Positions 4,527-54,398 of a DNA stretch of 64,000 nt are shown one piece after another. The stretch lies in the NCBI GenBank assembly GCA_001774685.1, contig MFAS01000001.1, positions 961,252-1,025,251 on the forward strand. The letters run 5' to 3'. The stretch is from Candidatus Collierbacteria bacterium RIFOXYD2_FULL_45_13. Lineage in GTDB: Bacteria > Patescibacteriota > Microgenomatia > UBA1400 > MFAQ01. The position numbers and the translations under genes were made by a program. The notes beneath the pieces are model-generated. The model worked only from the letters and a program-made list of their open reading frames with translations, was not told where the DNA came from and did not search any database. Each line of letters starts with the position of its first letter. Position 1 is the first letter of the stretch.

Positions 4527-5360
4527 TCATTCCAGTCTGTATCTCCCACCAGCTTCAGATACCATTCCACACAACGTCAGTTCGGTCAGCTTCCCCAGCA
4601 CTTGGGCCACGTTCATTTTAAGTAGTCGCGATAGTTCGTCTACAGATCTTTCCCCGTCGGCCAGAAGCAACAACATTGGATCACTATGTTCAATTTCCAG
4701 CTTCAACTGCCCGGGTAAAAGCCCCATTTCTTTGAGAATATCCTCCGCACACGTCACAGCCTTGGCTTTGCCATCACGGATGAGTCCATTTGTTCCTTCT
4801 GCCACCCGGCACGTCACTTGCCCCGGTAAAGCCAGAAGCTTCTTACCAAATTTATTGGCCAGGCGCGCTGTAATCATGCTTCCGGACTTCGTCGACCCTT
4901 CCACTACAAGCACAGCGTCCGATATCCCGGCCACGATCCTATTTCTTTGAGGAAAATACCACAGCAGCGGTGTTGTTTTTCCTTCATACTCTGACACCAT
5001 CAAACTATCAACTTCTAGTATTTTCTGATACAACTCCTCATCTTGGGAGGCTACTGGCCAATCAATCCCCCAGCCCAAAACCGCTATCGTCTTACCTCCA
5101 TTCTCAATACAGGCTGTGTGTGCGGCCTGATCCACTCCATACATGAATCCGGATACTATCGTCACTCCCCGCTCAACCAGCACGGGCATCCACTTCTCGA
5201 TTACTCTCTGTCCATACTCGGTCATGCGCCTGGACCCGACAATCGCAAGCTTCGGACTAGCGTTCAACAGCAGATCGATCTTTCCCTTATAAAACACGCT
5301 TTTCACCTCCGGCTTTATCTTCAACAAGCTCTCGCACCAGTTATCTCTTACAAGCTCCAT
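4527..5360 (-). CDS. dprA: DNA processing protein A (DprA/Smf)
   Basis: Rossmann-like DprA core IVGSRRMTEYGQRVIEKWMPVLVERGVTIVSGFMYGVDQAAHTACIENGGKTIAVLGWGID, followed by a C-terminal winged-helix tail. Confidence 0.9.
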   Translation of the reverse strand: MELVRDNWCESLLKIKPEVKSVFYKGKIDLLLNASPKLAIVGSRRMTEYGQRVIEKWMPVLVERGVTIVSGFMYGVDQAAHTACIENGGKTIAVLGWGIDWPVASQDEELYQKILEVDSLMVSEYEGKTTPLLWYFPQRNRIVAGISDAVLVVEGSTKSGSMITARLANKFGKKLLALPGQVTCRVAEGTNGLIRDGKAKAVTCAEDILKEMGLLPGQLKLEIEHSDPMLLLLADGERSVDELSRLLKMNVAQVLGKLTELTLCGMVSEAGGRYRLE

Positions 5361-8724: not shown

Positions 8725-10662
8725 ATGCGCGGTAGTTTAGAAAAGATTTCCACTCAGGTTCTCCAATTTATTCCTTTGGTTTTGGCTTTCCTCACACCAC
8801 TTTTTTTCTTACCCATCACAGTAGACGCTTTCAACTTCAACAAACTATATCTCGTCAGTTTTCTGGCCAGTCTTTCCATGATTGCCTGGTGTCTACGCAG
8901 TTTGGTCAGAGGCAAACTCACTGTCAATTTATCCCCCTCGCTCCTACCTCTATTATTTCTAGCACTGGCTTTCGTCATCTCATCCGTCTGGCTTAGCCCT
9001 ACCAAACACGCCTCCCTTTTTGGTCAAACTACCCTAACTGTTTCCCTATTCATTATTTTTGTGTCGGTAACTTCCTTGCAAAAATCAGTCGCGGTGATTA
9101 ACTCGGTTATCTTTGGCCTTGTTACCTCCGCCGCCACTCTCAGCCTCATCACTATCCTTCACCGTTTTGACCTACTTACCCGGATATTTTCCTCAGATTT
9201 GCTTACCAATAAGTCTTTCAACTTAACCGGTGGCATTCTCCCCGCACTGGCTTTCACTCTTCCGGTTCTCGTTTCCTCCGTGGCCTACCTAATCATTCAC
9301 AGAAACCGTTTGACCAAATCCCTGCTCTTCGCCGCCTCCATAATTATGATAGTCGCCAGCCTCATCAACCTCACTCTCATTTTTCCCCAAAACGGCCAAT
9401 CCACTCTTTTCTTACTTCCCTTTCGGGCAGGATGGTCTATCGCTATCGACACTTTGAAAAGCTGGCAAACTGCACTACTAGGTACCGGTCCGGATACTTT
9501 TCTTACCACCTTCACCCGTCTCAGACCAAGCTACCTAAACACTGACAACCTCACCTGGATTATCCGTTTTCCTGAGTCCAGTAATTACATCTTTACTCTT
9601 ATCACCACCACCGGAATCATCGGCACTCTCTCTTTTCTTTCCGCCTTCATTAGACCAGTCTGCATTTCCATCAAACACTGCAAAGCAAATACAGATAACC
9701 CTGCTTATGTCTTCTTGTCACTGGCTCTCATCTCTGTGCTCATCTCCTTTTTCGCTATACCCGCCGGAACTGTAACTCTCATTCTCGGTATTGTCTTATT
9801 GATAGCACTTACTGCAGAGTTTGATTTACTGGAGTTAAAAAATATCCAAAACACCGACCTCAAACTTTCCCGCAAAACCGATCCGTCTAAATTCACACTT
9901 ATGTTGCCCAGTGTAATCTTGACTTTCGCCTCAACCTTTCTCCTGTCTGTGTATTGGTACTATGCCCTGCCTACCTACTCTGCGTCTATGTCCGCCAGGC
10001 AAGCAGAAGCACTCATCACCACTAATCCTGTCGGCGCCTATCTTAAAGAGATCAACGCCGCCAAACTGGACCCCTACAATGTCAACTATGCCTTGTCTCT
10101 TTCACAATTCTTCAAGTCGCTCTCCCTGGTTCTTCTCAACAAAAAGGATGCTACTGCGGACGACAAGAAAAACGCCACCGACTACATGCAAAAGACCATC
10201 GACTACGGCAAACAGGCAGCACTTCTCGATCCTTACAATGTTATCGTCTGGGAAAATCTGGCCGATATCTACCAATCTTTCATCGGTTTCGCCGAAGGTG
10301 CCCATAACTTTGCCATTTCCCATCTGGCCCAAGCCATCGCGCTGGACCAATCAAATCCCCATCTCCGACTAAAGCTTGGTATTTTGTTCTTCAACCTCGG
10401 AGACTCCGACCAAGCCATCAAACTGCTAAACCAAGCCATCGAACTAAAACAAAACTGGGCAATTCCTTACTACAATATTTCGGCAATCTACAAACTCAAC
10501 AAAGATTATTCACGCGCTCTGCAATATATCCAAGCAAGTCAGCAGTATACCAGCCCAGCATCAACCGACTTTGCCAAAGTTCAGGACGAAATCAAATCAA
10601 TAGAGAAACTGCTGACCACTCCTACTACACCGACTCCGACACCCACCCCATCGAAGAAATAA
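8725..10662 (+). CDS. O-antigen ligase (Wzy_C)-like polytopic membrane protein with C-terminal TPR repeats
   Basis: At least ten hydrophobic helices with a large loop. C-terminal AISHLAQAIALDQSNPHLRLKLGILFFNLGDSDQAIKLLNQAIELKQNWAIPYYNISAIYKLNKDYSRALQYI are TPR-like. The tail is TTPTTPTPTPTPSKK. Confidence 0.6.
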   Translation: MRGSLEKISTQVLQFIPLVLAFLTPLFFLPITVDAFNFNKLYLVSFLASLSMIAWCLRSLVRGKLTVNLSPSLLPLLFLALAFVISSVWLSPTKHASLFGQTTLTVSLFIIFVSVTSLQKSVAVINSVIFGLVTSAATLSLITILHRFDLLTRIFSSDLLTNKSFNLTGGILPALAFTLPVLVSSVAYLIIHRNRLTKSLLFAASIIMIVASLINLTLIFPQNGQSTLFLLPFRAGWSIAIDTLKSWQTALLGTGPDTFLTTFTRLRPSYLNTDNLTWIIRFPESSNYIFTLITTTGIIGTLSFLSAFIRPVCISIKHCKANTDNPAYVFLSLALISVLISFFAIPAGTVTLILGIVLLIALTAEFDLLELKNIQNTDLKLSRKTDPSKFTLMLPSVILTFASTFLLSVYWYYALPTYSASMSARQAEALITTNPVGAYLKEINAAKLDPYNVNYALSLSQFFKSLSLVLLNKKDATADDKKNATDYMQKTIDYGKQAALLDPYNVIVWENLADIYQSFIGFAEGAHNFAISHLAQAIALDQSNPHLRLKLGILFFNLGDSDQAIKLLNQAIELKQNWAIPYYNISAIYKLNKDYSRALQYIQASQQYTSPASTDFAKVQDEIKSIEKLLTTPTTPTPTPTPSKK

Positions 10663-14418: not shown

Positions 14419-15207
14419 TTAATCGTGGTCGTCATCGACGATCTCCCCATCCACTATCCCCACTCGTCTCGTAGCTAGAGGCAAAAAGTTCATGTCATGT
14501 GTCACCATAATGACTGTCCTTCCATGTTCTCTGTTCAACCTGGCTAGTATTGTAACAATCTCAGTGCTCGATGCCGTATCTAAGTTGCCTGTGGGTTCAT
14601 CCGCCATGATTATCCAAGGATCTGTGGACAAAGCTCTGGCCAAAGCTACTCTTTGCTGTTGACCACCGGAAAGCTCCGCCGGCTTTTTGGTTGCCACAGA
14701 GTCCATAGCCACTTCACGCAAGACTTCCATAGACCGCAACTTGGCCGACTCCTCGTCGTAACCGGAAAGTAACAACGGATAAGCTACATTCTCCCAAACA
14801 TTCAGAGACTTAATCCAGTTAGACTGCTGAAAAACCATGCCAATCTTTTCTCTACGGAAGTTCGTTCTTTTGTCATCGTCTAGTTTGTAGAGATCCTGGT
14901 CTCTCAAAAAGATTTTTCCCTTGGAGGGTTTCTCCAGACCCAAAATTGAGTGAAGAAGTGTTGATTTGCCACACCCGGATGGGCCATAAATCACCACAAA
15001 CTCTCCTGCATATAAAGAAATGCTCACATTCTTCAGAATCTTCTGATGTTTACCACCTACCAAAAAAGTTATTTGTACCTTCTCTGCTTTGACTACCACA
15101 TGATGCGACCTCGGCCGTTTGGGAGCCAAGCTCTTTTCCACCGCCTCAATGTCAATAATCCTCTTGATCGATTCGCTGTCTGTTTTTTTATTCATAGCGT
15201 AAAGCAT
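14419..15207 (-). CDS. ABC transporter ATP-binding protein (MacB/LolD/FtsE-like)
   Basis: Walker A GPSGCGKSTLL, ABC signature LSGGQQQRVALARAL, Walker B IIMADEPTGNLD. Overlaps the permease gene. Confidence 0.9.
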   Translation of the reverse strand: MLYAMNKKTDSESIKRIIDIEAVEKSLAPKRPRSHHVVVKAEKVQITFLVGGKHQKILKNVSISLYAGEFVVIYGPSGCGKSTLLHSILGLEKPSKGKIFLRDQDLYKLDDDKRTNFRREKIGMVFQQSNWIKSLNVWENVAYPLLLSGYDEESAKLRSMEVLREVAMDSVATKKPAELSGGQQQRVALARALSTDPWIIMADEPTGNLDTASSTEIVTILARLNREHGRTVIMVTHDMNFLPLATRRVGIVDGEIVDDDHD

Positions 15208-17158
15208 TTAGGGCACTAATCTTCTTGGCTCTCATCGCCGGGTACAAGCCAGTAGCAAAACCCACTCCAATAGCCAAAAGTAACACACCTAGAGCAAACA
15301 AAGTAGGCGTCTTAAATAAGTTGATGGTTTTGTCCTCGCGCCAGAGCATGCTCAACAGGTTCACCGTTTTCCCCACCAAATTACCAACCACCACCCCACT
15401 GGTACCCCCAATAATTCCTATTAGTACTGACTCTGCCATAAACAAACGGAAGATATCTCTGTCCACAGTTCCCAGCGTCTTCATCACCCCTACCTCTCGG
15501 GATCTTTCGAGCAGGGAAATTGTCAAAGTATTAAACATGCCAAACAAAGCAACCACGAGAGCCGTAAAACCAAACGCACCTAGTAGAAATCTCATGACCC
15601 GAAACAAACGATCCACTTGGGCCAAAGTGTCCATGATGCTTTGGGTACTAAATCCCATGGCTTGAATCTTCTCACGCACCCCGGGTAAGGAGGTCGAATC
15701 TTTGGCCAAAACTTTCAGCTGGCTGTACTTATCTACGCCGACACTCTGGAGATCTTGCACCGGCACATACACCATCGGCTTTTTGTCATCCTTGACCACA
15801 CCGGTGACTTTGTACTGCACCACATTGGTCAGTACTCTGCCTGAAGAACCGGGGATCTGTCCTCCGCTCAGGATATACTGCAAGGTTACTGTCTTACCAA
15901 TCACCTCTTCCGGCTTTAACTTAAAAGTATTTAACAAAGCTGAAGTGACAACCACCTCTTTTCCTTCTACTCTTTTTATTTCCACAAGCGATAACTCAGC
16001 AGATGCGGTGGCATGGTCAGTCGTCTCTTGAACCGCCACCTTAACTAGCTCCGCCGATACCGTGGAGTTCATGCCGGCCACCGAAATCTGGGTTACCCCA
16101 GCCTCAGTCGCCTCTCCTAACACTTGACCGCCTATTTTCTCCATCCCTTCTTGGACATACTCCTGAGTCTTGTTCAAGATCTTTACCGAGTTCAGTGTCA
16201 AAAATCCTTGACGGGTCACCTGCTGACCGGCCTCGTCAATCATTGGTTCATAAATTGTCGACACCAGCTCCTTATATAGTGGTATTTTGGCTCTCATCCA
16301 TTTTCCAAACCATTCTCCCTCCTGTGACAGATATGTTTTGCCGCTGGAGTCCACGCTATTGTAATCTCCTCCCCATACCAGTTTTCCTTTATAGCTTTTC
16401 AGTACCGAACCTCGTATATATCCCAGCAGTCTACTGGTTCGTTCCGGACGTTCTCTCACCGGTAGATATTCATCATCATCAATCAGGAAACTCTGTTCAT
16501 CTTCCTCGATTAGGTCACCCTTCACCGGATCCTCACTGTTCTGTGTATCTGTACTATATCCTGCCACCTCTCCTACTAGCGAGCTCAGTTCTCCGGTAGC
16601 TCCTGTATATTTAGTAAAAGCTTCTGGGGACATCCAAGCACCACTCACCAAACTTGGTGAAGCATAATTGAAATAGTTCTGGCCCACCGACAAGACCACT
16701 ACGTCCAGTCTCGAATCAGATAGCGTTAATGACCCCGCCAAAGAGATCATCTGGGCCACATCATCCACTCCATCTATTTTCTTGATATCGTCAATTGTTT
16801 TGTCCGTCAGAGCTAAGCTTGTCGTCGACGAAACAACGTCGGTTAACCTCATCGAGTTTGGCGATACCAGTCTTTTGGTCACGATATCTTGCAGTCCATA
16901 GGCAAACGAAACCAAAAATACCACTGCCGCCGTCCCCATAGCGATAGCTGTTACCGTCATAGCTGTTCTGGATGGTTGGTTCCGCAGGTTTCTTAAAGCC
17001 AGGTTATAGACGGCCTTGTTTGACAAACTCCCCTGTCTCGGCGTCTTCCACCATTTTTTGGCAGACAAAACCATTTGTCTCGGTGACATCAGCCTGACCT
17101 TTCTCAGGCTCATTACCACACTCAAAATAGTTTTCAAAAATTTCGACACTTTGTTCAT
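15188..17158 (-). CDS. ABC transporter permease, FtsX/MacB-like with large extracytoplasmic domain
   Basis: N-terminal TM, long ectodomain, C-terminal FtsX-type helices ending ...YPAMRAKKISALNALRYE. Confidence 0.8.
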   Translation of the reverse strand: MNKVSKFLKTILSVVMSLRKVRLMSPRQMVLSAKKWWKTPRQGSLSNKAVYNLALRNLRNQPSRTAMTVTAIAMGTAAVVFLVSFAYGLQDIVTKRLVSPNSMRLTDVVSSTTSLALTDKTIDDIKKIDGVDDVAQMISLAGSLTLSDSRLDVVVLSVGQNYFNYASPSLVSGAWMSPEAFTKYTGATGELSSLVGEVAGYSTDTQNSEDPVKGDLIEEDEQSFLIDDDEYLPVRERPERTSRLLGYIRGSVLKSYKGKLVWGGDYNSVDSSGKTYLSQEGEWFGKWMRAKIPLYKELVSTIYEPMIDEAGQQVTRQGFLTLNSVKILNKTQEYVQEGMEKIGGQVLGEATEAGVTQISVAGMNSTVSAELVKVAVQETTDHATASAELSLVEIKRVEGKEVVVTSALLNTFKLKPEEVIGKTVTLQYILSGGQIPGSSGRVLTNVVQYKVTGVVKDDKKPMVYVPVQDLQSVGVDKYSQLKVLAKDSTSLPGVREKIQAMGFSTQSIMDTLAQVDRLFRVMRFLLGAFGFTALVVALFGMFNTLTISLLERSREVGVMKTLGTVDRDIFRLFMAESVLIGIIGGTSGVVVGNLVGKTVNLLSMLWREDKTINLFKTPTLFALGVLLLAIGVGFATGLYPAMRAKKISALNALRYE

Positions 17159-20100
17159 TATAGTTTTAGAAATCCAAATATATCCTCCAAATTGGCGAGT
17201 ATCACATCAAAAGCCGCCTGTTGCGAGGTCGGAGTCACCACCACCGTATCTCTAGTCGCCACCGTGTTCCCGGTCTTATCCGTAGAAGTAACTTTTAGGT
17301 GATAAGTCGATGTCGGCTGCAGGTCACGAATCACCATCACATGTTTGGTGGTCAGTTCTTGATCTTTTTCGGTTGACGAAGAATACTCGGTACCGGTACC
17401 GGTTCCCCAGACCACTTGGCCCAAGGCCGGCTCATCCGTATCCCAAGAGACAATGATACTTGTCTTGGCTTCCGAACCAACCCCGGACATAGGTGTCTCA
17501 ATCACCACGTTGCTTATTACTGGTGGTCTGGTATCTGCTCCGGTGACATAACGGATAGGGTCAGCGATGACTTCATTACCATTTCCATCTCTACCACTAA
17601 TAGTAAAAACATAGACAGCTCCATCCTCAAGATCTTGGAGTCTCATCAGATGTTTCGTCTCCAGTTTTCCGGAATACGTTTGTTTTTGCGCAGTCTTTGG
17701 TGTCGTTGGTAACTGAGATAATCTAGCTTGAGACATGCTCGACAAGGTCGACAGGTCTACCTCCGATCCCAAACGACTCTGATCTACCGCCAAACCCTGA
17801 TAATCCACTTGACCGGTGGTGGCTACATTGGTCGCCCAAGCCAAGATCACTGATGTCCCGCCGGCACCCTGATCGGTATTTAGTACCACAGCCGTCACTT
17901 TCGGATAAGTCAAGGTGGAGAAGGTGTAGTCATCAGATATCACGTCGTTTCCATCCAGATCGATACCCCGGATTCTAAAATGGTAGGTAGTGGAGTGTGT
18001 CAAATCAGCAATCCTTCCTGTATGCAATGTTTCTCCGGAGCTGGCCGACACCGAGATTTCCGCACCATAATCAGTGGTCGTACCATACTCAATTTCCGAT
18101 GAAGCCAGCGAGGCGCTGGACCAATTAATCACTACGGTAGTTAATGTTTCGTCGGTCACTTCTACACCGGTGATCGAGGGTGTTGATTGAGTGGTAAAGC
18201 TATAATCAGCAGAATAAGCGTCAGTACGGCTATAACCCATGAGACCAGAATCGTCCAAGTTCTGTACTCTATAGTGATAGGTTTCTCCCGGAGTCAAACC
18301 GGAAATCTTGACAGAGTGAGAGGCACTTTGCGTTGCCTCAGAAGCATTGCTTCCGTAGCCGGTTGTCTTACCGTAATCGACCGATCCAAACGATTTTCTG
18401 GACGTGGTCCAGGTCACCGTGGCAGTTGCCGCACCTACCGTTACCGATGGTGTTCCGCCAGTTGTCGGCGGTGAGGTGTATTTTCCCTCGGGAGCAGAAT
18501 TGACAGTGTTTGAATAAAGTGAGGTAGCTCCGGCATTGTCTACCGCTTGCACCTTGTAGTAGTACTTTGTAGACTGGGTCAGGTCTGCATCGGTATAAGC
18601 GGTTGAGGTAGTCGAACCAACTTTTGTAAAAGTCGAGTTATCTGTCGACTTGTAAACATCATATCTTGCCGGCGTTCCTCCCGATGCCGCTACTTTCCAG
18701 GCCAAGGTCAATCTCCAACTCGAACTATCCTTATCCGAAGCATCAGTCACCGTCAGCGAAGTCGGAGCTCCGGGTGCTGTAGTGCTCGCATAAAAATCTG
18801 CCGTCGCATAAGCGTCAAAATTTCTGTTCCCTAAACCAGTAGAGGTATTGATAGTATTGTCTTCGGCCACTATATAGAAAGTATTTTTTCCTTGTTGGGT
18901 TGCCAGGGCCGTCGCTGTAATCGTCCGATCAACCGTCTGTGTCGCACTGGTTTCTGACATTGTCAGAGCACTAGGGGTACAGTTAACGCAGTAATAATAC
19001 TTGGCAATTGCTCCCGAATAAGTCGCCGGTTCACCCCATGTCACCGTAAATGAGTTGGTTGATGATGGACTGTCGGCTGTAGTGCTTGGTGTAATGGTTA
19101 GACTTGTTGGTGCAGTTGGCGCTTCGGCGTTGTAATAATATTTCGTATTTATTGTTGATGAGTAATTCCCCGCATTGTCATAGGCTCGCAAATAGAAAGT
19201 GTTCTCGCCACTCTGATAAGCCGGAATGTCCGCCACTGATGTTCCAGTGGTATTCTGCCAATCACTTAATGCTCCCGACTCCGTCCCTGTCTTGTACTGG
19301 TAGCCGGCCAAACCGGATCCTCCGGTATCGGTGGTAGCCGGCCAGTAGAAAGTGTACGAATTAGAAACGCTGTACCCCACACTGGTACTGGTCACCGTTG
19401 CCGGTGCGGAGGGAGCCGTCCCATCATAGGTATAAGTAAACTTTGTTTGGGTCGCCGAGTAATTTCCGTTATTATCTTTAGTCTGCACTCTCAAATAGTA
19501 TGGAGTGCCACTAATTAGCGATGAAGCGGTATAGTTTGTGGTCGTCTGTAAGGTAGCCGAAGCACTCGCCTCACCCGCCTCATCCGTGTCCATAAATAGG
19601 TAGTATCCCGCCACTCCACTGCCACCATCTCCATCAGATCCGGCCGACCAGGTAAAGTAAGGGTTAGCGTATCCTCTGTAAGCTCCCGTGGTAATCGCCG
19701 TTCCCAGTGCCGAAGTATCGTACCCAGAAATCGTCGTCGGATTACTCGGCGCCGTCTCGTCGTTGTAATAATTTAACGTAATACTATTTATAGACGGTGT
19801 GTTGACGTTATCTGTAGAAAAAAGTTTCGCTCTTACTTGCAAGTACTTGTTTACTGCAGAGCCGACAGAATACGAGTAGTCACTCCCCACATTGTATTTT
19901 TGGTTCGCATAACTCCAGCTACTCCAAGTAGCGCTATCCGTCGAACTTCTGGTCTCAAACACCGTTCTCGTGGCTGATGGCGAAGCCATATTTACTTCTA
20001 AACCTGCCCAGCCAAACGGCTTGCCAAGAGTCAAAGTGTCACTAGTGTAAGTGCCGCTATTTTCATAAGCTTTATCGCTCGCAGGTGGCAAGAACCAGTA

Positions 20101-23100
20101 CCAACCGTATCCGGCCGAACCAGTCCCTTGACCAAAAGTGGTGAAAACTCTGTTACCTGCCTTTACCATAGCGTTGTACGATATCAGGTTTGACGCCGCA
20201 GCCACGGTCGTCCAAGAATTACTAGGAATATCGTATTTAAACATCGCCCCCGAAATATAGCTCCTCGGCATCCAGATTGAAGTACCATCGGTAGTCATAA
20301 TATTTCCACCGTAAGATGTATAAATCGTCGCCGGTGCCGCAGCCATAGTAGACCAAGTATTGGCCGCTACATTGTAGCGATAAAACGTAGTTGTGTTGTA
20401 CCCTCTTGGTGTATAGATATAGCCATTACCGTCATAGACTAAGCCTAAACTGTAATGCACTGTATCTGCCGTAGATGTCTTGGCTGTCCAAGCATTGCTA
20501 TTTATGTCATACTCCCAGAAGTCCGTTGTTCCTCCACCCCTTAATGCATAAAGTTTTCCGTTATCTTCGTTGTATATCAATCCGTTACCATAACTAGTAC
20601 TAGACGGTGTAGTCGTTAGTGTCGTCCAATTATTAGTTGTTGTGTCATAACGCCAAAAGGCCGTCGAACCTCCTCTAAGGGCATAGATATAACGTGTACC
20701 ATCATATGCCAATGAAGTTCCATAAGACGCATAGTTAGGAGAGTCAGCCACTCTCGTCCAAGTATTGGCTGAAATTGAATATTTATAAAAATATCGATAG
20801 ATCCAAACGGCATTTGAGTTTACCGGCAATACATATACCGTATCGTCGCCGTCGTAGGCCAAACCAGCTCCATTCGTGGTATAAACTGGTGAGGGAGCCA
20901 CCGCATTTTGCCACTCGTTATAGGTCGGGTCGTATGCCCAAAACTCGTTAGAGTTAGCTCCTCTGGTCGCATAAATTTTATCCGTTATACCATCATAGGT
21001 TAATGATGCTCCGTAACTTGGCGTCCCCGGAGTATTTGTTAATTTCGTCCAAGCATTTGAGGTTGGATCATACTCATAAAAACTAGTGGTTGAGTTACCG
21101 GGTAAGGCGTATACCTTTCCATTTCTATACGACAAAGCTCCACCGGCTGAGTTATAGAAAGGTGTATCTGTTAATGTTGACCAAGTATCTGTCGTAATAT
21201 CGTATCGCCAAAATCTTCGTAAATAGCCATAGCTTTGATCATAACCCGGCGTTGCATAAATGTAATGCCCACCGTCGTAAGCCAGTCCAGCTCCTGTATT
21301 TGTCAAGAACGGTGCACTTGTCCTCGAAGACCAGGTGTCAGTTGCCGGTAGGTACCTCCAAAACGCCGTGCCACCACCCTGAAAAGCATAGACATAAGTA
21401 CCGTCTGAAGTTAGAGTTGCTCCGCCACCATTTGCATTAAACACGCCTGGTGCACTAGCCACCGTCGACCAAGTATTAGTCGCTACAGTGTACTTGTAGA
21501 CCGTAGCTGTACCAAGATAACGGATGACAAAGATGTTAGTTCCGTCCGTCGTAATATTGTTTTGGTAAATAGCGTGTAGTCCTCCTGGTGTACTAGCCAT
21601 AGTTGTCCAAGCACCAGTAGAAACAGTGTAACGATAGAAGGTAGTTGTGTTGTTCCCCGCTGCTACGTAGACATAACCTCCGAGGTAGACAGCACCACCG
21701 CCGTAGTAGACGGCAGTGGGAACGCCCGGCAAACTCCATCTCCCCAACTCATTTCGAGCCAGTTTCAGAGACCCTGCCGAACTGGTCGCCTCTGTGTTAG
21801 ATAATGTTCCTGCCGTAAAGTCGGCCTGTGAAGTTTTTGTCACCGTTGATACCGGCGACACACCAGTGTAAGCGTAAGTAAAGCTAGCCGCGCTACTGGA
21901 AGTGTTCCCGGCAAAGTCTTTGGTTTTAATTCTCAGGTAGTACGTCGTCCCGGAAGTCATCGTTTCTGTCACCTGAAAAGAGGTTCCCATTTGTAGATTC
22001 CCCGCTGTCGCCGGGTCGGCACTAACGTTGCTCCCAAAATAAACAAAGTAACCGGAGACAGTGCTTTCACTGTCTATCGCTGCCGGCCAGCTAAAGTACG
22101 GGCTGGGGTAAAAGTAAGAGCTACCAGATGATAGAGCCGTCCCCAAACTACTATTGTCGTACCCACTTATTGTTGGACTACTTGGAGCTCCCGTGTCTCC
22201 CGTGTAATTTACAGTGTAGTCCGATAAAGTGGGCGAGCTTACTCCATCACTACTAGCCAAAGTGGCTTTTACTTCCAAAAATCTCTGAGCCGTGGACTGA
22301 ATATTTCCACTGGATAGTGTCTGCCAAGCACTCCATACTCCCGAGTCGGTACTACTTCTAGTTTGAAAAGTAATACTGGTGTTGGCCGGTGTCGTCGTGG
22401 TACTGGTAAGGCTTCCAAAGCTTGCAACGTAATTAAAGTCGTGTCGCTTGATAAAGTACCCAGAAGACTGATAAGTGGTAGTACCTGGCGTAATTCGATA
22501 AAAGTCTGGTGTAGCTGCACCTCTGGTGGCGTAAATCTTATTATTGTCTGTATCATAGGTTAGAGCTGCACCATAACTAAATGCACTAGGTACTGTCGAG
22601 ATCTTCGACCAGGAGTTCAGAGCGACATTGTAGGCATAAAGCTGGGTAGTTCCTTGCATCGAAGCATATACAATACCGTTACGGTAAGTAATTGATCCCC
22701 CTGTAGCATTAGTGTCTGGTGTCTCCGCTAAGTTACTACTCCAAGTGTTAGCTGCGATGTCGTAACGCCAAAATCCTCGCACGTGCTCTGCCCCAGATAC
22801 ATACCCTGGCAAGGCGTAAATATAATTTCCACCATCATAAACCAAACCAGCGCCGGTATAAGGAGCGGCTGGTGCCACGGCCCTTGTCGTCCACGAATTC
22901 CCAGCTATGTCGTATCTCCAAAAAGCCGTTGTCCCTCCCTGGAATGCATATAGGTAAGTACCATCGGAAGTCAAAGTACATCCTCCACCATTAGCACAAA
23001 AAACGGCGGGGGCATCCGCCACCGTCGACCAAGTATTAGTCGCTACAGTGTACTTGTAGACCGTAGCTGTACCAAGATAACGGATGACAAAGATGTTAGT

Positions 23101-23985
23101 TCCGTCCGTCGTAATATTGTTTTGGTAAATAGCGTGTAGTCCTCCTGGTGTACTAGCCATAGTTGTCCAAGCACCAGTAGAAACAGTGTAACGATAGAAG
23201 GTAGTTGTGTTGTTCCCCGCTGCTACGTAGACATAACCTCCGAGGTAGACAGCACCACCGCCGTAGTAGACGGCAGTGGGAACTGCATTCATGTTTGACC
23301 AAGTATTAGTTGCCACGTCGTAACTGTAAAAATCAATACTGTTACTACCCCTTGTCGCAAAAATTTTGTGGTTAACCGTGTCATAGGTCAGTGACGCTCC
23401 ATAACTAGTTGTTCCTGGGAGGCTGGCCATGGTCGACCATGTGTTGGTCGCCACAGAGTAACGATAGAATCCCGTTGTTCCACCAGTGGCCAAATAGACA
23501 TAACCATTTTTATAAGTAATGGCACAGCCGGCAGTACAGTATGAAGGCGTGTCCGCCATGGTCGTCCAAACATTCTTATCCATGTCATAGCGCCAAAATC
23601 TCCGCAAGTAACCATAACTACCATCGTACCCTGGTACTGCCCAAATGTAGTTATTGTCTGTGTCTACCACCATTCCGGCACCCGTGTTGGTCAAAAATGG
23701 TGTACTGCTGACCCCCTCCATCAATCCATTTCCACCAGGAGCTAGCTTTACCTCACCGGAAGATGTAGCCGTATCCAAGTTATTGGTCTCCCGGTAGTCC
23801 ACCGCTTCCCAGTCTGTCTTGCTCGACATGGTCACCGAAGATGCCGCCTGCGCTTCACCTGGTTTCGTCGAGATATTTCCATCGCGAATTGAGAGTAAGT
23901 TCCACGGCAGGATCATCAGCACACAAAGAACCGACCAAATGGTTTTCTTCGTGAGGCGTCTCAGTGTCTTTCTGTACCGTTTCAT
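17158..23985 (-). CDS. giant (2275 aa) cell-surface protein: Kelch-like beta-propeller repeats plus multiple FN3-like domains
   Basis: N-terminal signal/anchor. Repeated ...Y.YA..G....F.RYD...W modules. FN3-like blocks (TAPSAPT.., PGETYHYRVQ, HSTTYHFRIRGID). ATGA-coupled upstream and 1-nt overlap with the permease downstream. Confidence 0.8.
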   Translation of the reverse strand: MKRYRKTLRRLTKKTIWSVLCVLMILPWNLLSIRDGNISTKPGEAQAASSVTMSSKTDWEAVDYRETNNLDTATSSGEVKLAPGGNGLMEGVSSTPFLTNTGAGMVVDTDNNYIWAVPGYDGSYGYLRRFWRYDMDKNVWTTMADTPSYCTAGCAITYKNGYVYLATGGTTGFYRYSVATNTWSTMASLPGTTSYGASLTYDTVNHKIFATRGSNSIDFYSYDVATNTWSNMNAVPTAVYYGGGAVYLGGYVYVAAGNNTTTFYRYTVSTGAWTTMASTPGGLHAIYQNNITTDGTNIFVIRYLGTATVYKYTVATNTWSTVADAPAVFCANGGGCTLTSDGTYLYAFQGGTTAFWRYDIAGNSWTTRAVAPAAPYTGAGLVYDGGNYIYALPGYVSGAEHVRGFWRYDIAANTWSSNLAETPDTNATGGSITYRNGIVYASMQGTTQLYAYNVALNSWSKISTVPSAFSYGAALTYDTDNNKIYATRGAATPDFYRITPGTTTYQSSGYFIKRHDFNYVASFGSLTSTTTTPANTSITFQTRSSTDSGVWSAWQTLSSGNIQSTAQRFLEVKATLASSDGVSSPTLSDYTVNYTGDTGAPSSPTISGYDNSSLGTALSSGSSYFYPSPYFSWPAAIDSESTVSGYFVYFGSNVSADPATAGNLQMGTSFQVTETMTSGTTYYLRIKTKDFAGNTSSSAASFTYAYTGVSPVSTVTKTSQADFTAGTLSNTEATSSAGSLKLARNELGRWSLPGVPTAVYYGGGAVYLGGYVYVAAGNNTTTFYRYTVSTGAWTTMASTPGGLHAIYQNNITTDGTNIFVIRYLGTATVYKYTVATNTWSTVASAPGVFNANGGGATLTSDGTYVYAFQGGGTAFWRYLPATDTWSSRTSAPFLTNTGAGLAYDGGHYIYATPGYDQSYGYLRRFWRYDITTDTWSTLTDTPFYNSAGGALSYRNGKVYALPGNSTTSFYEYDPTSNAWTKLTNTPGTPSYGASLTYDGITDKIYATRGANSNEFWAYDPTYNEWQNAVAPSPVYTTNGAGLAYDGDDTVYVLPVNSNAVWIYRYFYKYSISANTWTRVADSPNYASYGTSLAYDGTRYIYALRGGSTAFWRYDTTTNNWTTLTTTPSSTSYGNGLIYNEDNGKLYALRGGGTTDFWEYDINSNAWTAKTSTADTVHYSLGLVYDGNGYIYTPRGYNTTTFYRYNVAANTWSTMAAAPATIYTSYGGNIMTTDGTSIWMPRSYISGAMFKYDIPSNSWTTVAAASNLISYNAMVKAGNRVFTTFGQGTGSAGYGWYWFLPPASDKAYENSGTYTSDTLTLGKPFGWAGLEVNMASPSATRTVFETRSSTDSATWSSWSYANQKYNVGSDYSYSVGSAVNKYLQVRAKLFSTDNVNTPSINSITLNYYNDETAPSNPTTISGYDTSALGTAITTGAYRGYANPYFTWSAGSDGDGGSGVAGYYLFMDTDEAGEASASATLQTTTNYTASSLISGTPYYLRVQTKDNNGNYSATQTKFTYTYDGTAPSAPATVTSTSVGYSVSNSYTFYWPATTDTGGSGLAGYQYKTGTESGALSDWQNTTGTSVADIPAYQSGENTFYLRAYDNAGNYSSTINTKYYYNAEAPTAPTSLTITPSTTADSPSSTNSFTVTWGEPATYSGAIAKYYYCVNCTPSALTMSETSATQTVDRTITATALATQQGKNTFYIVAEDNTINTSTGLGNRNFDAYATADFYASTTAPGAPTSLTVTDASDKDSSSWRLTLAWKVAASGGTPARYDVYKSTDNSTFTKVGSTTSTAYTDADLTQSTKYYYKVQAVDNAGATSLYSNTVNSAPEGKYTSPPTTGGTPSVTVGAATATVTWTTSRKSFGSVDYGKTTGYGSNASEATQSASHSVKISGLTPGETYHYRVQNLDDSGLMGYSRTDAYSADYSFTTQSTPSITGVEVTDETLTTVVINWSSASLASSEIEYGTTTDYGAEISVSASSGETLHTGRIADLTHSTTYHFRIRGIDLDGNDVISDDYTFSTLTYPKVTAVVLNTDQGAGGTSVILAWATNVATTGQVDYQGLAVDQSRLGSEVDLSTLSSMSQARLSQLPTTPKTAQKQTYSGKLETKHLMRLQDLEDGAVYVFTISGRDGNGNEVIADPIRYVTGADTRPPVISNVVIETPMSGVGSEAKTSIIVSWDTDEPALGQVVWGTGTGTEYSSSTEKDQELTTKHVMVIRDLQPTSTYHLKVTSTDKTGNTVATRDTVVVTPTSQQAAFDVILANLEDIFGFLKL
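21458..21723. repeat. 266-bp perfect direct repeat, copy 1 (inside the Kelch-like gene)
   Basis: Identical to 23018..23283; encodes GAVYLGGYVYVAAGNNTTTFYRYTVSTGAWTTMASTPGGLHAIYQNNITTDGTNIFVIRYLGTATVYKYTVATNTWSTVA. Confidence 0.8.
23018..23283. repeat. 266-bp perfect direct repeat, copy 2
   Basis: Identical to 21458..21723; in frame, 1560 bp offset. Confidence 0.8.
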
Positions 23986-24497
23986 GGAACTGCAATGGGG
24001 CTAGGTGGTAATGCAAGTTCTCCAGTAACCATCTCGGCTCGAAAAGGCTTCTCACCCAAACCATAAAGTTTGCCTTCCGAAAAAATCTTAAAGTAAACCG
24101 TGCTCATGGGTCCCGCCGAAATTACAGCCATGTGGGACTTCTGCGGTTCGGTATCGTTGGCACTCATCACGGGGCTCGATAGATACTCGGCGGAGTTACC
24201 CCAGATCACCATACCAATACTTAGTTTACTCGTTTCCCAGCTCACCATCACATTTCCCAAAGCATCTCTACGATACTGGATACTGCTTGGCTCAGTGGAC
24301 ATTTTTACTCCCCACCATTTTATCCCCGGACCATACTTTACGACTCCATAAATACCAAGAACAAAAATCATGGACACAAATGAAATCAAGACAAGCCTCC
24401 AATACCTTTTTGAAAACCTAGAAACCAGACCAACTTTATGGTTCACATCACTCCTCTGAAAGTCGTTTCGCGACTTTGAATCACTCTTGGCAGGCAT
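23982..24497 (-). CDS. membrane-anchored FN3-like protein (171 aa)
   Basis: Basic N-terminus, TM helix LVLISFVSMIFVLGIYGVV, then a beta domain. ATGA overlap with the giant gene start. Confidence 0.55.
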   Translation of the reverse strand: MPAKSDSKSRNDFQRSDVNHKVGLVSRFSKRYWRLVLISFVSMIFVLGIYGVVKYGPGIKWWGVKMSTEPSSIQYRRDALGNVMVSWETSKLSIGMVIWGNSAEYLSSPVMSANDTEPQKSHMAVISAGPMSTVYFKIFSEGKLYGLGEKPFRAEMVTGELALPPSPIAVP

Positions 24498-37616: not shown

Positions 37617-40600
37617 ATGGTCCTGCCCAACCAAGTCGAACTGCTAAAACATTTCTCTTCTTTCCTATTCGAAGCCGGGCTTTCTTCTGTATCGATCAAA
37701 AATTATCTCTCCGATGTTCGTCATTTTCTAAGCTTTTCACAATCACTTCCGGGTGTTTCGATGGAGCAAATCTTTAGCAAGATCACTGAATTCCTCCCAC
37801 CATACCTGGAAGCTCAACAATCTACCTATACCCCAAAGTCCACTACCAACCGTCGTCTAGCCTCTATCCGGCGTTTCGCCACCTTTCTAAGCGTGAAATA
37901 TGACATTAGCGATTTTTTCACGCAACAAAATATATCAAACAAGAGCAATCAAATTTTGTCCTGGCCCCATATCAACGGATCCAGGGAACCAACTCAAACC
38001 AGATCAGCTCCTATTCCGACACCTGATGAAGACAATAATCATCTCCATGTTTCTTCGAAGACCATGTCCTCCGATAAAATCCTGGAGCAGTTCAAGACCT
38101 CACTGGAAAAAGAAAAAAAGACCCACTCCACCATCAAAAACTATCTCTCGGATCTCAATCACTTCTTCCTGTGGACTGCTAACCAAACACCCTTCACCAC
38201 ACAAAATCTCTTGAATATTTTGAGTGAATCTCAATTACAGGCCTACATCACTTACCTCAAACTAAGTCATACCAGCACATCGGTCCTCAGCCGTCGGCAA
38301 TCCTCAATCAAGAAGTTAGCTCGATTTTGTTTGAGTGAAGGCTACATACCCAAGAACCCCTTTGAAATCAAGCAAGCACCTCAGAAAATTGCCCCCCTAG
38401 CTTGGATTGAAAGACTATCTCACAAGGCCAAGAAGCCTTCTAAGGGCCCTAAAAACATTTTTGTCCTCTGGTATGACAGATACAATGCACTTTCTTGGAC
38501 CCCATATCTAAACGTTGCCCACCTCGTATTGGCCACCACAGCCATGGCTATTTTTGCCTACAACCAGATTATTGGTCAGACTAGACCTAGCGCCGCCGCC
38601 ACCGCCCTGACCCCACCCAGAAGACAGCTGTCTTTTCAGGGTAGACTGACAGACTCCTCCGGCACTCCCATCACCACTTCTGTCAACGTTGTCTTTAAGC
38701 TCTTCAACCAGCTGGCTCCTCCTGGAACCCAGCTGTACACTTCCGGCACCTGTTCCATCACCCCGGACCAAAGCGGTATCTTTAATTCCTTAATTGGCGA
38801 CGGGGTCTGTGGCTCCGAAATCGGCTCATCTGTTTTCACAGACAATCGGGACGTTTTCTTGGAGATTACCATTGGAGCGGAAACCCTTACCCCCAGACAA
38901 CAAATTGCCACCGTTGGTTATGCCCTCAACTCCGAAACCCTCCAGGGGTATCCGGCATCCGCCTCGGCAACCATCAACACTGTCCCCGTTGTTGACAACA
39001 GTGGCAATATCACCATCGCCGCCTCGTCACCCTCCATAGTTTCCACTTCCGGTACTTTTACAGTGAAGGGCCAAAGCCTCGCCCTGACCACCGCCGCTAA
39101 CTCCGGCGGTGACATTGTTCTTCAGCCGGACTCCATAGGCTCCGGTCAAATATTGGCCATCGGTGGCACCACTACCGAAGATTCTCTTAGGGTAACTAAT
39201 GCAAACTTGACAGGCGGCACACTTATCTCCGGTTACGTTGGTAACAATACGGCCACCGGCAGAATCCTTTCGCTTACTTCGGGGTCCACTGAAACAGATC
39301 GGTTCTGGGTGGCTACCGACGGACGCACCGGCATCTTTGCCTCCGACGCCGACACTGCGCTGATTGTGAACCAAACCAGTACCGGTAATCTTATCTCTGC
39401 CTCGGTTTCCGGCTCACCGGTCTTCACGGTAACCAACGGAGGCAACGTCGATATCACCGGTCAGTATTTGATAAACGGCACACCTATTGGCAGCGGTAGC
39501 AACTGGCAGCTTACCTCCGGCTCTCTCACCCCTCTTCAAATAACCAATTCCATCAACATCGGAGCCATCGCCACCGCCTCCGCTCTGGTCCACCTCGCCG
39601 GAACTTCCGGAGAAAATTCATGGATCAACACCGGCAACTTTGGTATCGGGACTACCAATCCGTCGGAAAAACTGAACGTGTCCGGCAATGTCAAACTAAC
39701 CGGTAACCTTCTGGCTACAACCGATAACACCCAAGATCTAGGTGACTCTACCAACAGCTGGTCCAGACTCTATTTATATACCGGCATCAACGACAAAGAT
39801 GGTACAGAGGTCATCTCTACACTCAACAAACGCCTTACCGGAGGATCGGCTTGGAATATCGTTGAAGGTGCCAGACTTGGCGACATCAACGCTATCACCG
39901 CAGGCTATAAATTAGATGTCGTCGGCAATGCCACCGCTTCGGGAAATATCAGTCTAGGTGGACAGCTCCAAGTTGGTCGTTTTGCAGTAGCCCCGACCTC
40001 CCTCGGTTCCGGTTCCATGTACTTCAATACCACCACCACTACCGGTAACTCTAATCCAAATACAGAAACCCCTGGAACCACCGGCAGTCTTTTTGTTTAT
40101 GGTGTAGATAATGCCTATCACCGACTGGCTATGGACATGACTCAATACTCCAGTAACAGTGCCAATATCGCCAATCAAAGCTATATTGAAGTGGCTCACA
40201 ACCAAAACACCAACGACATTTCTCTAACTGCCTGGGTCTACAACAGCGCCACCACCCTCTGGCAAAAAATCAATGATTATTTAGCGAAGTCAGTTACTCA
40301 TGATCTAGATAACGAGTTTAATCCTCCTTTCACTCAAAAAATGAAGACTTCAACTGTCGCCATTGATTACAATGAAAATGATCTGGGCAATGGAGCCGAC
40401 GGAGCGGCTAGTATTTCTACCGATCGCAACCTCAATACCACGAATATCAATAACAACTGTACGACCGATGGGGGCGACGCCGTCAACTACTCTGTTACAG
40501 CCCTCACTAGTACCACTGCCACTCTCGAATCTACTCCAGGTGCAGGATGTCTTGAGGCAGGTGACGAAATTCTCCTCATCAACCTGCAGGGAGGCACCGC

Positions 40601-54026: not shown

Positions 54027-54398
54027 TTAATCCAGTTGATCGTAAGGTGAGCGGCGCTCAATGAGTCCATCTGAACCCCATCCAGGCGTAGCCGCCAGTT
54101 TGTCCAATACTCTTGTGGACATGTCTTCCAAAAACGCAGCGGCATCCGACAGATCACGCTCACCGTCGCGCAAAGTCTCTGCGTTTATGACCAAAGCCAC
54201 TTTGACAGAGGCTGACAGAAGTTCAACCTCTCCATCGCCAAACGCCTCTTGTACCGCTTTTTCAAAGATCGGCTGATCGATGGACAGGTTACGCACCTGT
54301 AAGACAACCTCATCTCCGACCATCTCCCCCACGAGCGGTGTCATCGAAACCAGTTCCACCACATACATGTCACCTTGGTTGAATCTCGCCACCATCAT
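54027..54398 (-). CDS. acidic cytoplasmic protein (123 aa), hypothetical
   Basis: ATGA-coupled to the upstream lipoprotein gene; no TM helix. Confidence 0.5.
   Translation of the reverse strand: MMVARFNQGDMYVVELVSMTPLVGEMVGDEVVLQVRNLSIDQPIFEKAVQEAFGDGEVELLSASVKVALVINAETLRDGERDLSDAAAFLEDMSTRVLDKLAATPGWGSDGLIERRSPYDQLD

What the first reader, a model, noticed from the sequence alone, without database searches (positions are those of the whole stretch)
21458..23283. Perfect 266-bp direct repeat inside the 2275-aa Kelch-like surface protein gene
Positions 21458-21723 and 23018-23283 are nucleotide-identical, while the flanking repeat units of the same propeller family are diverged. The duplication is therefore very recent or maintained by gene conversion. 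Recombination between the copies would delete, in frame, 1560 bp (520 aa, several Kelch blades). This is a plausible mechanism for size or antigenic variation of a surface protein. Collapse of the repeat is also an assembly hazard.
Basis: seen in the sequence. Interest (0 to 1): 0.6.

Follow-up and report, generated by a model that had tools for sequence, protein, structure and literature searches.

The report
Homogenised blade repeats in surface gene
A giant cell-surface gene of an uncultured groundwater bacterium (Candidatus Collierbacteria) holds stretches kept letter-for-letter identical by internal copying, and public assemblies of the same strain disagree on how many copies there are, so the gene either really varies in length or is regularly mis-assembled, in this window too.

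Summary
Window 21458-21723 and 23018-23283 are identical over 266 nt, 1560 nt apart and in frame, inside a 2275-aa Kelch/FN3 gene (17158-23985, minus strand) of Ca. Collierbacteria from the Rifle aquifer.

The identity comes from recent gene conversion, not a new duplication. Third-codon positions are 100% identical in the core and saturated beyond it. The closest ortholog has the same copies at the same 1560-nt spacing, but only 72-75% identical.

The intact gene has three copies. Another Rifle assembly encodes a 2414-aa form with an extra 417-nt unit (three blades, 341 nt identical). All 25 distant homologs examined keep those blades. The window is therefore a shortened form, either a real deletion or an assembly collapse.

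Its crossover lies inside the repeat and it has no other difference from the window. This cannot be told apart from mis-assembly without reads.

Several contigs break at the repeat, and one carries an artefactual 141-nt gap.

This is a new member of a known kind: repeat-mediated, in-frame length change in a surface protein, as in H. pylori cagY. Interest is moderate.

The parts
17158..23985 (-). Giant gene, 2275 aa as assembled here. It has an N-terminal basic and hydrophobic segment (signal or anchor, judged by eye). Module 1 holds 9 Kelch-type blades here, followed by a beta-rich domain and an FN3-like domain. Module 2 holds about 13 blades, followed by the same two domains. After that come about 10 FN3/PAP_N-type domains.
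   Evidence: ORF list and translation. Pfam Kelch_1, Kelch_6, Beta-prop_ATRN-LZTR1, fn3 and Pur_ac_phosph_N above cut-off. Hundreds of homologs of about 2370 aa in Microgenomates/Patescibacteria. Organism name.
23018..23283 (-). Repeat copy A, the N-terminal copy (codons 235-323). It covers blades 4-5 of module 1. In the 2414-aa form this copy occurs twice in tandem (A and A').
   Evidence: Exact identity to 21458-21723; translation.
21458..21723 (-). Repeat copy B (codons 755-843), the first two blades of module 2. It includes one blade that 24 of 25 distant homologs lack, so B is the likely recipient of an A-type patch.
   Evidence: Occupancy of 0.08-0.16 among homologs for P0126 aa 926-975. 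The B-equivalent segment is 62-64 aa in 24 homologs against 109 aa here.
22933..23273 (-). A 341-nt segment present twice in tandem (period 417 nt, 139 aa, 3 blades) in the 2414-aa form. The two copies are separated by a 76-nt junction J, which encodes STNFWKYDVANNHWRGSVVNLVPSGS and is absent from the window. This is the site of the deletion or collapse in the window.
   Evidence: L004 self-comparison at offset 417 gives 341 identical nt. L003 and L004 against the window. J has no match in the window within 3 mismatches.
21352..21457 (-). Older, diverged continuation of the homology downstream of copy B. It pairs with 22912-23017 downstream of copy A at 75% nt identity. Weaker in-register similarity continues to about 20940.
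   Evidence: BLAST 373-nt HSP with 27 mismatches, all outside the core. Per-100-nt identity. Third-position identity of 0.52, then 0.22-0.43.
23982..24497 (-). 171-aa ORF that overlaps the start of the giant gene by 4 nt. It has an N-terminal transmembrane-like segment and an FN3/PAP_N-like domain (by eye). A 175-aa ORF sits in the same position in the P0003 ortholog.
   Evidence: No Pfam or NCBIfam hit.
15188..17158 (-). MacB/FtsX-type ABC permease whose start overlaps the stop codon of the giant gene. It is a conserved neighbour of the family.
   Evidence: Pfam MacB_PCD and FtsX. The same pairing is seen in a distant homolog locus, L009.
14419..15207 (-). ABC ATPase of the same transporter (LolD/FtsE/MacB-like).
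   Evidence: Pfam ABC_tran and NCBIfam LolD-like hits.

Best explanation
The 266-nt perfect repeat is the newest layer of intragenic gene conversion (concerted evolution) between Kelch-blade units of a conserved giant surface protein of about 2400 aa in Ca. Collierbacteria.

The ancestral gene has two propeller modules and three related blade-pair segments: A and A' in module 1, and B at the start of module 2. In this lineage homologous recombination has repeatedly copied one segment over the others. That leaves 341 nt identical between A and A' and 266 nt identical between A/A' and B, next to old flanks that are saturated at synonymous sites.

The identical, in-frame copies are substrates for further recombination or replication slippage. 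A x A' removes 417 nt (3 blades) and gives the 2275-aa form in the window. A x B removes 1560 nt and gives a 1755-aa form.

Shown: the repeat itself, its conversion origin, the three-copy ancestral layout, and the existence of 2414-, 2275- and 1755-aa versions in public assemblies of one near-clonal population.

Inferred: that these versions are real cell lineages rather than short-read assembly paths, and that RecA or slippage is the agent.
For: Conversion rather than fresh duplication:
- A, A' and B are 95-100% identical (aa) within this genome and 65-75% identical within the closest ortholog P0003. Between the two genomes they are only 35-42% identical.
- In 24 other homologs A-A' is 31-50% and A-B 18-33% identical.
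- The P0003 gene has copies at spacings of 423 and 1560 nt with 72-75% nt identity, so the layout is old.
- Third-codon identity is 1.00 in the core, 0.52 in the next 23 codons and 0.22-0.43 beyond.
- The junction J differs from both sequences that a fresh tandem duplication would have joined.

Three-copy form is the intact one:
- L004 encodes 2414 aa with A-J-A'...B.
- All 25 distant homologs have residues (occupancy 0.88-1.0) across the 139 aa missing from the window protein.
- Five Rifle scaffolds start at window 22987, exactly 55 nt before the point where J and the window sequence diverge. One of them continues into J (L003). The other four carry the same protein and are read here through L008, which continues into the window sequence. 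This is as expected if both successors exist in those samples.

Length forms:
- Versions of 2414, 2275 and 1755 aa are on record.
- The backgrounds differ by only 0-4 SNPs per 16-27 kb, and every junction lies inside a perfect repeat.
- The 2275-aa form also appears in a separately assembled ENA contig.

Recombination context: DprA, ComEC and a ComEA-like gene are in the window.
Against: - No reads were available. Every length difference can also be produced by a de Bruijn-graph assembler taking a wrong path through repeats of 266-341 nt, which are longer than any k-mer.
- The 1755-aa contig (L005) has no other difference from the window.
- One apparent deletion (L006, 141 nt) proved to be an artefact. 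It starts exactly 100 nt into the repeat, and the partner contig's protein ends 99-101 nt into the other copy.
- The 1614-aa form comes from a source labelled SRC, which I know as a protein-level (Plass) assembly. It has no contig on record.
- Bubble-popping could hide a few true differences between copies, so 'perfect' means perfect as assembled.
- RecA was not looked for, and it is not in this window.
Confidence: 0.7

Rival explanations
1. Assembly or curation collapse. The organism has one fixed gene of three or more copies (2414 aa). The two-copy window form and the 1755-aa form are wrong paths through perfect repeats, taken by short-read assemblers or when scaffold ends were joined by overlap. 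There is no biological length variation.
For: - Raw Rifle scaffolds break at the repeat (L003, L007, and L008 standing for four contigs).
- The break at 22987 implies J is present in those samples.
- The 2275-aa form sits on four contigs of more than 1 Mb, much longer than the raw scaffolds seen here (up to 342 kb). Joining scaffold ends by overlap would give the shortest path; that this happened is my inference.
- L006 shows that artefacts do occur at this repeat.
- All 25 homologs keep the 3 blades the window lacks.
- The AF2 model of the 9-blade window module is less confident after about residue 245 (pLDDT 39-78, pTM 0.58) than the 12-blade ortholog module (pTM 0.68).
Against: - An independent ENA contig (L002, a different strain with 4 SNPs) also has the two-copy form.
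- The 1755-aa form runs unbroken through a 110.8-kb JGI contig and is on 2 contigs. That is hard to obtain if the competing graph edges had equal coverage; this point is inference.
- Tandem repeats with 341 nt of identity are known to delete at measurable rates in bacteria (my knowledge of E. coli tandem-repeat deletion assays), so some heterogeneity is expected.
Confidence: 0.45
2. Recent segmental duplication. The second copy arose by a recent duplication of a 266-nt or larger piece, and has not been homogenised from older copies.
For: Perfect identity and a sharp upstream boundary.
Against: - The copies sit at homologous positions of two old modules.
- The ortholog P0003 has them at the same 1560-nt spacing with 25-28% nt divergence.
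- Diverged homology continues in register for about 500 nt beyond the core.
- Distant homologs have A, A' and B equivalents.
- One old insertion-like event is still needed: B carries an extra blade in this genome and in P0003. That event predates the split from P0003.
Confidence: 0.05
3. Selected contingency locus. The repeats are maintained because switching between length isoforms of an exposed protein is advantageous, for example to change host attachment or to escape phage or host recognition.
For: - All possible crossovers are in frame (periods of 417, 1560 and 1977 nt).
- Homogenisation has happened in two lineages.
- The structural forms in this gene are the only large differences among otherwise near-identical genomes.
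- There is a published precedent in H. pylori cagY (PMC2194252).
Against: - In-frame periods follow automatically from blade-unit repeats.
- There is no evidence that the shortened proteins fold or function.
- There is no expression or phenotype data.
- The variants may be artefacts.
Confidence: 0.2
4. Template-directed diversification (a diversity-generating retroelement, DGR) or another targeted mutagenesis system, with one copy as template and the other as variable region.
For: None beyond the presence of two related copies in a surface protein.
Against: - The copies are identical, with no adenine-specific mismatches.
- No reverse transcriptase was found among the window ORFs scanned.
- The repeat lies in a Kelch blade, not in a C-type lectin fold.
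Confidence: 0.01

Closest known systems
Helicobacter pylori cagY repeat regions (Aras et al. 2003, PMC2194252)
   Same: It is a large surface-exposed protein gene packed with direct DNA repeats. Every recombination between them stays in frame and yields deletion or duplication size variants within one population (abstract read).
   Different: For cagY, the variants were shown by PCR, immunoblot and serology in single hosts, and the protein is a type IV secretion subunit. Here the variants are known only from short-read assemblies. The repeats are blades of a folded beta-propeller rather than short motif repeats. There are only three copies, and the organism is an uncultured CPR (Candidate Phyla Radiation) bacterium with no known immune pressure.
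Identical tandem repeats in Gram-positive surface proteins (group B Streptococcus alpha C/Rib; Staphylococcus SasG/Aap) and Mycoplasma Vsa size variation (from my own knowledge, not checked here)
   Same: These have nucleotide-identical repeats kept uniform by concerted evolution. Copy number changes by homologous recombination or slippage, and this alters protein length and surface properties.
   Different: Those repeats are many, contiguous, and form stalk-like independent domains, so any copy number folds. Here the units are blades of closed propellers. Two of the three copies are 1560 nt apart, and recombination between them removes whole domains.
Conserved Microgenomates/Patescibacteria family of Kelch + FN3 proteins of about 2370 aa next to a MacB/FtsX ABC transporter (unnamed; sources call them 'fibronectin type III domain-containing protein', 'large repetitive protein' or 'N-acetylneuraminic acid mutarotase')
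   Same: The window gene is a full-length member, with 30-38% identity over 94-100% of its length. It has the same module order and the same transporter neighbour.
   Different: Typical members have diverged internal blades (A-A' 31-50%, A-B 18-33% aa). The window gene and its relative P0003 have homogenised ones plus an extra blade in module 2. The window copy also lacks three blades.

Membership tests
Kelch-repeat beta-propeller / FN3 multidomain protein | Significant matches to Kelch and fn3 profiles above the curated cut-offs | tested here: met
   Kelch_1 scores 117 bits against a cut-off of 20.1, Kelch_6 108 bits, Beta-prop_ATRN-LZTR1 102.5 bits and fn3 77.6 bits. The AF2 model of the ortholog module is all-beta with 46 strands. 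Foldseek matches it to 6-bladed Kelch domains and to tandem double propellers.
Conserved Microgenomates giant Kelch/FN3 protein family | Full-length collinear homology and a conserved MacB/FtsX-ABC neighbour | tested here: met
   More than 100 homologs of 2348-2410 aa cover 94-100% of the query. The transporter lies downstream both here and in L009, and the upstream small ORF is shared with L010. The 12-blade module 1 is not met by the window copy, which has 9 blades. It is met by the 2414-aa form of the same strain.
Concerted evolution by intragenic gene conversion | Paralogous segments within a genome are more alike than orthologous segments between genomes | tested here: met
   Identity is 95-100% and 65-75% within the two genomes, against 35-42% between them.
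Concerted evolution by intragenic gene conversion | A tract with identical synonymous sites bounded by old, synonymously saturated flanks | tested here: met
   Third-position identity is 1.00 in the core, 0.52 in the next 23 codons, and 0.22-0.43 beyond.
Concerted evolution by intragenic gene conversion | Non-reciprocal transfer observed directly (donor unchanged, recipient converted) | not testable with these tools
   This needs ancestral or intermediate strains, and the nearest relative on record is only 38% identical. There is indirect evidence: B carries an A-type extra blade that is absent from 24 of 25 homologs.
Repeat-mediated size-variable surface proteins (cagY / alpha C / Vsa type) | Long direct repeats whose recombination products all remain in frame | tested here: met
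   The periods are 417 and 1560 nt, with a sum of 1977 nt, and all are multiples of 3.
Repeat-mediated size-variable surface proteins (cagY / alpha C / Vsa type) | Length variants co-occurring in a natural population, with junctions inside the repeats | tested here: inconclusive
   Forms of 2414, 2275 and 1755 aa occur in assemblies of one near-clonal population, and their junctions lie in the repeats. All of these are short-read assemblies, and collapse cannot be excluded.
Repeat-mediated size-variable surface proteins (cagY / alpha C / Vsa type) | Surface exposure and a phenotypic or antigenic consequence of the size change | not testable with these tools
   The only indications are an N-terminal basic and hydrophobic segment (by eye), extracellular-type domains, and the transporter neighbour.
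Diversity-generating retroelement target | A template/variable repeat pair that differs at adenines, plus a nearby reverse transcriptase | tested here: not met
   The copies are identical. No RT was found among the scanned ORFs of the window.

The most novel reading that the evidence does not exclude
A CPR bacterium with a genome of about 1.09 Mb keeps blade cassettes of its largest conserved surface protein sequence-identical. Recombination then switches the protein between 2414-, 2275- and 1755-aa isoforms, which coexist in an otherwise clonal aquifer population. This would be a recombinational size switch acting on a folded beta-propeller and coupled to a MacB-type transporter, possibly tuning attachment to hosts or escape from phages.
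Probability: 0.2. Interest if true: 0.6.

Novelty: new member of a known kind. Interest (0 to 1): 0.4.

Why it matters
If the isoforms are real, this would be a contingency-type locus in a CPR bacterium. It would act on the protein most likely to mediate contact with the outside world, and it would be the main structural difference among otherwise near-identical genomes from one aquifer.

If they are not real, the practical lesson still stands. The four contigs of more than 1 Mb that carry the 2275-aa form (four GenBank protein accessions), this window's record among them, probably hold a version of this conserved gene that lacks three blades. Protein catalogues also hold at least three further artefactual lengths of it.

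Either way, the case shows that perfect repeats of 266-341 nt inside genes silently change gene models in short-read MAGs (metagenome-assembled genomes).

Tried and rejected
1. Exact-pattern scans of metagenome contigs and genome contigs, using a 30-mer from the repeat and a 31-mer from junction J, found nothing. These collections evidently do not hold the relevant Rifle contigs, so the result says nothing about frequency.

2. I searched the protein database with the 432-aa inter-repeat segment, hoping to find leftover fragments in the JGI sample that yielded the 1755-aa form. No near-identical hit came back, not even the known full-length cluster, so the search is uninformative.

3. A contig look-up for the 1614-aa form P0002 found nothing on record. 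Its second deletion (141 aa) has only 8 nt of identity at the junction. It comes from the source labelled SRC, which I know as a Plass protein-level assembly. I set it aside as unreliable.

4. The 141-nt in-frame gap in L006 first looked like a genuine one-blade deletion with no junction homology. I rejected it because it starts exactly 100 nt into the repeat, and the partner contig's protein ends 99-101 nt into copy A. That is the signature of k=100 unitig ends.

5. The different TPR gene calls downstream (645 aa against 487 aa) looked like a strain marker linked to the 2414-aa form. The DNA is identical there, so the difference is only in gene calling.

6. SNP haplotypes cannot link forms to strains, because the backgrounds differ by only 0-4 SNPs.

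7. The idea that the blades must come in multiples of six was dropped. Module 2 has about 13 blades here.

8. The AF2 comparison of the 12-blade and 9-blade modules is only suggestive, because the alignments are shallow (11-13 sequences) and coordinates could not be inspected.
Full report
OBSERVATION

The exact run is maximal at 266 nt and the offset is 1560 nt (also seen by the repeat finder). Both lie in one ORF, 17158-23985 on the minus strand, which is 2275 aa. In gene orientation the repeat begins at the first base of codon 235 (copy A) and codon 755 (copy B), so the offset is exactly 520 codons.

Upstream of the repeat, identity falls to the random level at once. Downstream it decays in steps. 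The next 107 nt carry 27 mismatches. Weaker similarity in the same register continues for about 500 nt more. At the flank's 25% divergence about 67 mismatches would be expected in 266 nt, and none is seen.

WHAT THE GENE IS

Pfam finds Kelch repeats and a 6-blade Kelch propeller profile in two N-terminal regions, and fn3/PAP_N-type domains through the C-terminal half. By reading the translation the order is as follows:
- a basic and hydrophobic N-terminus;
- module 1: blades, a beta-rich domain and an FN3-like domain;
- module 2: the same three elements;
- then about ten FN3-type domains.

The gene sits in an apparent operon with overlapping starts and stops:
- a 171-aa ORF with a membrane-anchor-like start (23982-24497);
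- the giant gene;
- a MacB/FtsX permease (15188-17158);
- an ABC ATPase (14419-15207).

The exact protein is on record from Candidatus Collierbacteria MAGs of the Rifle aquifer. The window matches GCA_001774675.1, contig MFAP01000001.1, which is 1.09 Mb.

The protein belongs to a large unnamed family of Microgenomates/Patescibacteria. More than 100 homologs were listed. Nearly all are 2348-2410 aa, 30-38% identical and collinear over 94-100% of the length. The transporter neighbour recurs in a distant member (L009). The small upstream ORF recurs in the closest one (P0003, L010).

ORIGIN OF THE PERFECT IDENTITY

Four results point to gene conversion between old paralogous blades, not a new duplication.

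First, third-codon positions are 100% identical in the core. They are 52% identical in the next 23 codons and 22-43% beyond, which is saturation. A very young tract therefore lies inside old homology, with one layer of intermediate age.

Second, I aligned the N-terminal 1500 aa of three forms of this gene with 25 distant homologs. All homologs have equivalents of the segments. In 24 of them the A and A' equivalents (see below) are only 31-50% identical, and A and B 18-33%.

Third, the segments show the classic signature of concerted evolution. Within this genome A, A' and B are 95-100% identical (aa). Within the closest ortholog P0003 they are 65-75% identical. Between the two genomes they are only 35-42% identical.

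Fourth, the P0003 gene has its three copies at spacings of 423 and 1560 nt with 72-75% nt identity. The layout, including the 1560-nt spacing, therefore predates the split.

Copy B also contains one blade that 24 of 25 homologs lack. Occupancy is 0.08-0.16 there, and the B equivalents are 62-64 aa against 109 aa here. This suggests B once received an A-type two-blade patch and has since been re-converted.

A THIRD COPY, AND THE WINDOW AS A SHORTENED FORM

The 90%-identity clusters of this protein hold versions of several lengths.
- One is 2414 aa (P0126). It lies on a 342-kb raw Rifle scaffold (L004).
- It is identical to the window protein except for 139 extra residues.
- At the DNA level, L004 has a 341-nt segment (window 23273-22933) twice in tandem with a period of 417 nt.
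- The two copies are separated by a 76-nt junction, J.
- J has no match in the window.
- J is diverged from both sequences that a fresh tandem duplication would have joined. The tandem pair is therefore old and homogenised.

All 25 distant homologs have residues (occupancy 0.88-1.0) across exactly the 139 aa that the window protein lacks. The 12-blade module 1 of the 2414-aa form is therefore the family architecture. The window gene, with 9 blades, is a derived form.

An AF2 model of the 12-blade module of P0003 was moderately confident (pLDDT 74.6, pTM 0.68). Foldseek matched it to 6-bladed Kelch domains over about half its length and to tandem double propellers over its full length. The window's 9-blade module modelled less well (pTM 0.58). 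Its confidence dropped after about residue 245. This is suggestive only.

PUBLIC ASSEMBLIES DISAGREE EXACTLY AT THE REPEATS

All loci compared are near-clonal, with 0-4 SNPs per 16-27 kb. The forms on record are these.

- 2414 aa, three copies (L004). A second scaffold from another sample (L003) starts just upstream of J and runs into the repeat.
- 2275 aa, two copies: the window. This form is on four contigs of more than 1 Mb and carries four GenBank protein accessions. It is also on an ENA contig with SPAdes-style naming (L002) that has 4 SNPs.
- 1755 aa (P0129), on a 110.8-kb JGI contig (L005) and one more contig. The crossover is inside the 266-nt core, and there is not one other difference from the window.
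- 1614 aa (P0002). This is the same fusion plus a further 141-aa deletion whose junction shares only 8 nt. It has no contig on record. Its source label, SRC, is to my knowledge a protein-level (Plass) assembly, so I do not trust it.
- A GW2011 contig (L006) with a 141-nt in-frame gap in copy B. I first took this for a real one-blade deletion. However, the gap begins exactly 100 nt into the repeat. The protein on the partner contig (P0128) also stops 99-101 nt into copy A. That is the mark of k=100 unitig ends, so it is an artefact.
- Contigs that simply break at the repeat. L007 (a 986-kb MAG contig) starts 76 nt before the end of the core. L008 stands for four contigs that carry the same protein, and it starts at window 22987, as L003 does.

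Position 22987 is 55 nt before the point where J and the window sequence diverge. One scaffold that starts there goes into J, while the L008 group carries the window sequence. That pattern is expected only if both successors exist in those samples. It means the three-copy arrangement is present in at least five Rifle samples. This last step is my inference from how de Bruijn-graph assemblers end contigs.

HOW IT MOST LIKELY WORKS

The identical copies are in-frame substrates for homologous recombination or replication slippage.
- A x A' deletes 417 nt (three blades).
- A x B or A' x B deletes 1560 or 1977 nt. This removes the rest of module 1, its beta-rich and FN3-like domains, and the linker.

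The window encodes DprA, ComEC and a ComEA-like protein. RecA was not looked for. No reverse transcriptase was found among the scanned ORFs. The copies are identical rather than adenine-mutated, so a diversity-generating retroelement is excluded.

What I cannot decide without reads is whether the 2275- and 1755-aa forms are real cell lineages or assembler paths.

For collapse:
- The raw scaffolds broke at this locus.
- The four contigs of more than 1 Mb that carry the two-copy form would get the shortest path if they were made by joining such scaffold ends by overlap. This step is my inference.
- All homologs keep the missing blades.

For reality:
- An independent assembly of a slightly different strain gives the same two-copy form.
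- The 1755-aa form runs unbroken through a long contig.
- 341-nt tandem identity is known to be unstable in bacteria (my own knowledge).

I put the chance that the window's copy number is an artefact at roughly one half.

COMPARISON WITH KNOWN SYSTEMS

In mechanism this is the same kind of thing as the cagY repeat regions of Helicobacter pylori. There, every recombination between direct repeats stays in frame, and size variants coexist in a host (PMC2194252). It also resembles the identical tandem repeats of streptococcal, staphylococcal and mycoplasma surface proteins (my own knowledge).

It differs in four ways. The units are blades of closed beta-propellers. There are only three copies. Two of them are 1.5 kb apart. 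No variant has been shown experimentally.

The gene is a clear member of the conserved Microgenomates Kelch/FN3 family. It is unusual within that family for its homogenised blades.

VERDICT

The repeat is real and is explained by recent intragenic gene conversion in a conserved giant surface protein.

The size-variation idea now has concrete candidates in public data but remains unproven.

This is a new member of a known kind, of moderate interest. Its practical value is as a flag on the deposited Collierbacteria genomes.

NOTICED IN PASSING

- The strong, one-directional GC skew of the window is already published for this lineage (PMC7143001).
- A second giant ORF (37617-46733) has its own diverged internal repeats.

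Noticed in passing
window 1-64000: GC skew on the plus strand is strongly negative (-0.1 to -0.35 per 2 kb) whatever the gene orientation. It is near zero inside the two giant genes (about 18-24 kb and 40-44 kb) and across 54-62 kb. The genome-wide one-directional skew is published for Ca. Collierbacteria and relatives (Kadnikov et al. 2020, PMC7143001). The local flattening inside the giant genes was not explained.
   Followed up: partly
window 37617-46733 (+): This is a second giant ORF of 3038 aa. Its only Pfam hit is a phage-integrase N-terminal SAM-like domain at aa 156-242. It holds its own internal direct repeats of about 800 nt at 71-81% identity, spaced 2292-2298 nt apart (40661-41467 against 42953-43765). 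It is followed by a type IV pilin-like ORF with an N_methyl motif (46749-47417).
   Followed up: partly
window 27336-29848 (-) and 4527-5360 (-): Competence genes are present. ComEC is split into two ORFs: the Competence domain at 28109-29230 and the Lactamase_B domain at 27336-28112. There is a ComEA-like ORF with SLBB/HHH_3 domains (29234-29848), and a DprA gene (4527-5360).
   Followed up: no
window 23982-24497 (-); L010 1801-2328: A small ORF of 171 aa, with a membrane-anchor-like start and an FN3-like domain, overlaps the start of the giant gene. A 175-aa ORF sits in the same place in the closest ortholog. It has no Pfam or NCBIfam match. It may be a conserved partner of the giant protein.
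   Followed up: partly
window 8725-10662 (+): The TPR protein is called as 645 aa in some records and as 487 aa plus three small opposite-strand ORFs in others. The DNA is identical in all of them, so this is an inconsistency in gene calling, not a strain difference.
   Followed up: yes
L007 (GCA_001774655.1, MFAO01000001.1): A 986-kb contig that is 100% identical to the window over the 9.9 kb compared is labelled 'Pseudomonadales bacterium GWC2_63_15' in the source name of its protein (OGD81227.1). This looks like a mislabelled Collierbacteria genome.
   Followed up: no
window 30181-36901 (+) and 54395-62768 (-): There are long runs of ORFs (244-592 aa) with no Pfam match at all. This is common in CPR genomes. 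They were not examined further.
   Followed up: no
protein P0130: A 523-aa fragment from an ENA contig of 1.7 kb is 56% identical to the inter-repeat part of module 1. That is closer than any full-length homolog found, where P0003 is 38% identical. A relative of intermediate distance therefore exists and could help date the conversion events.
   Followed up: no
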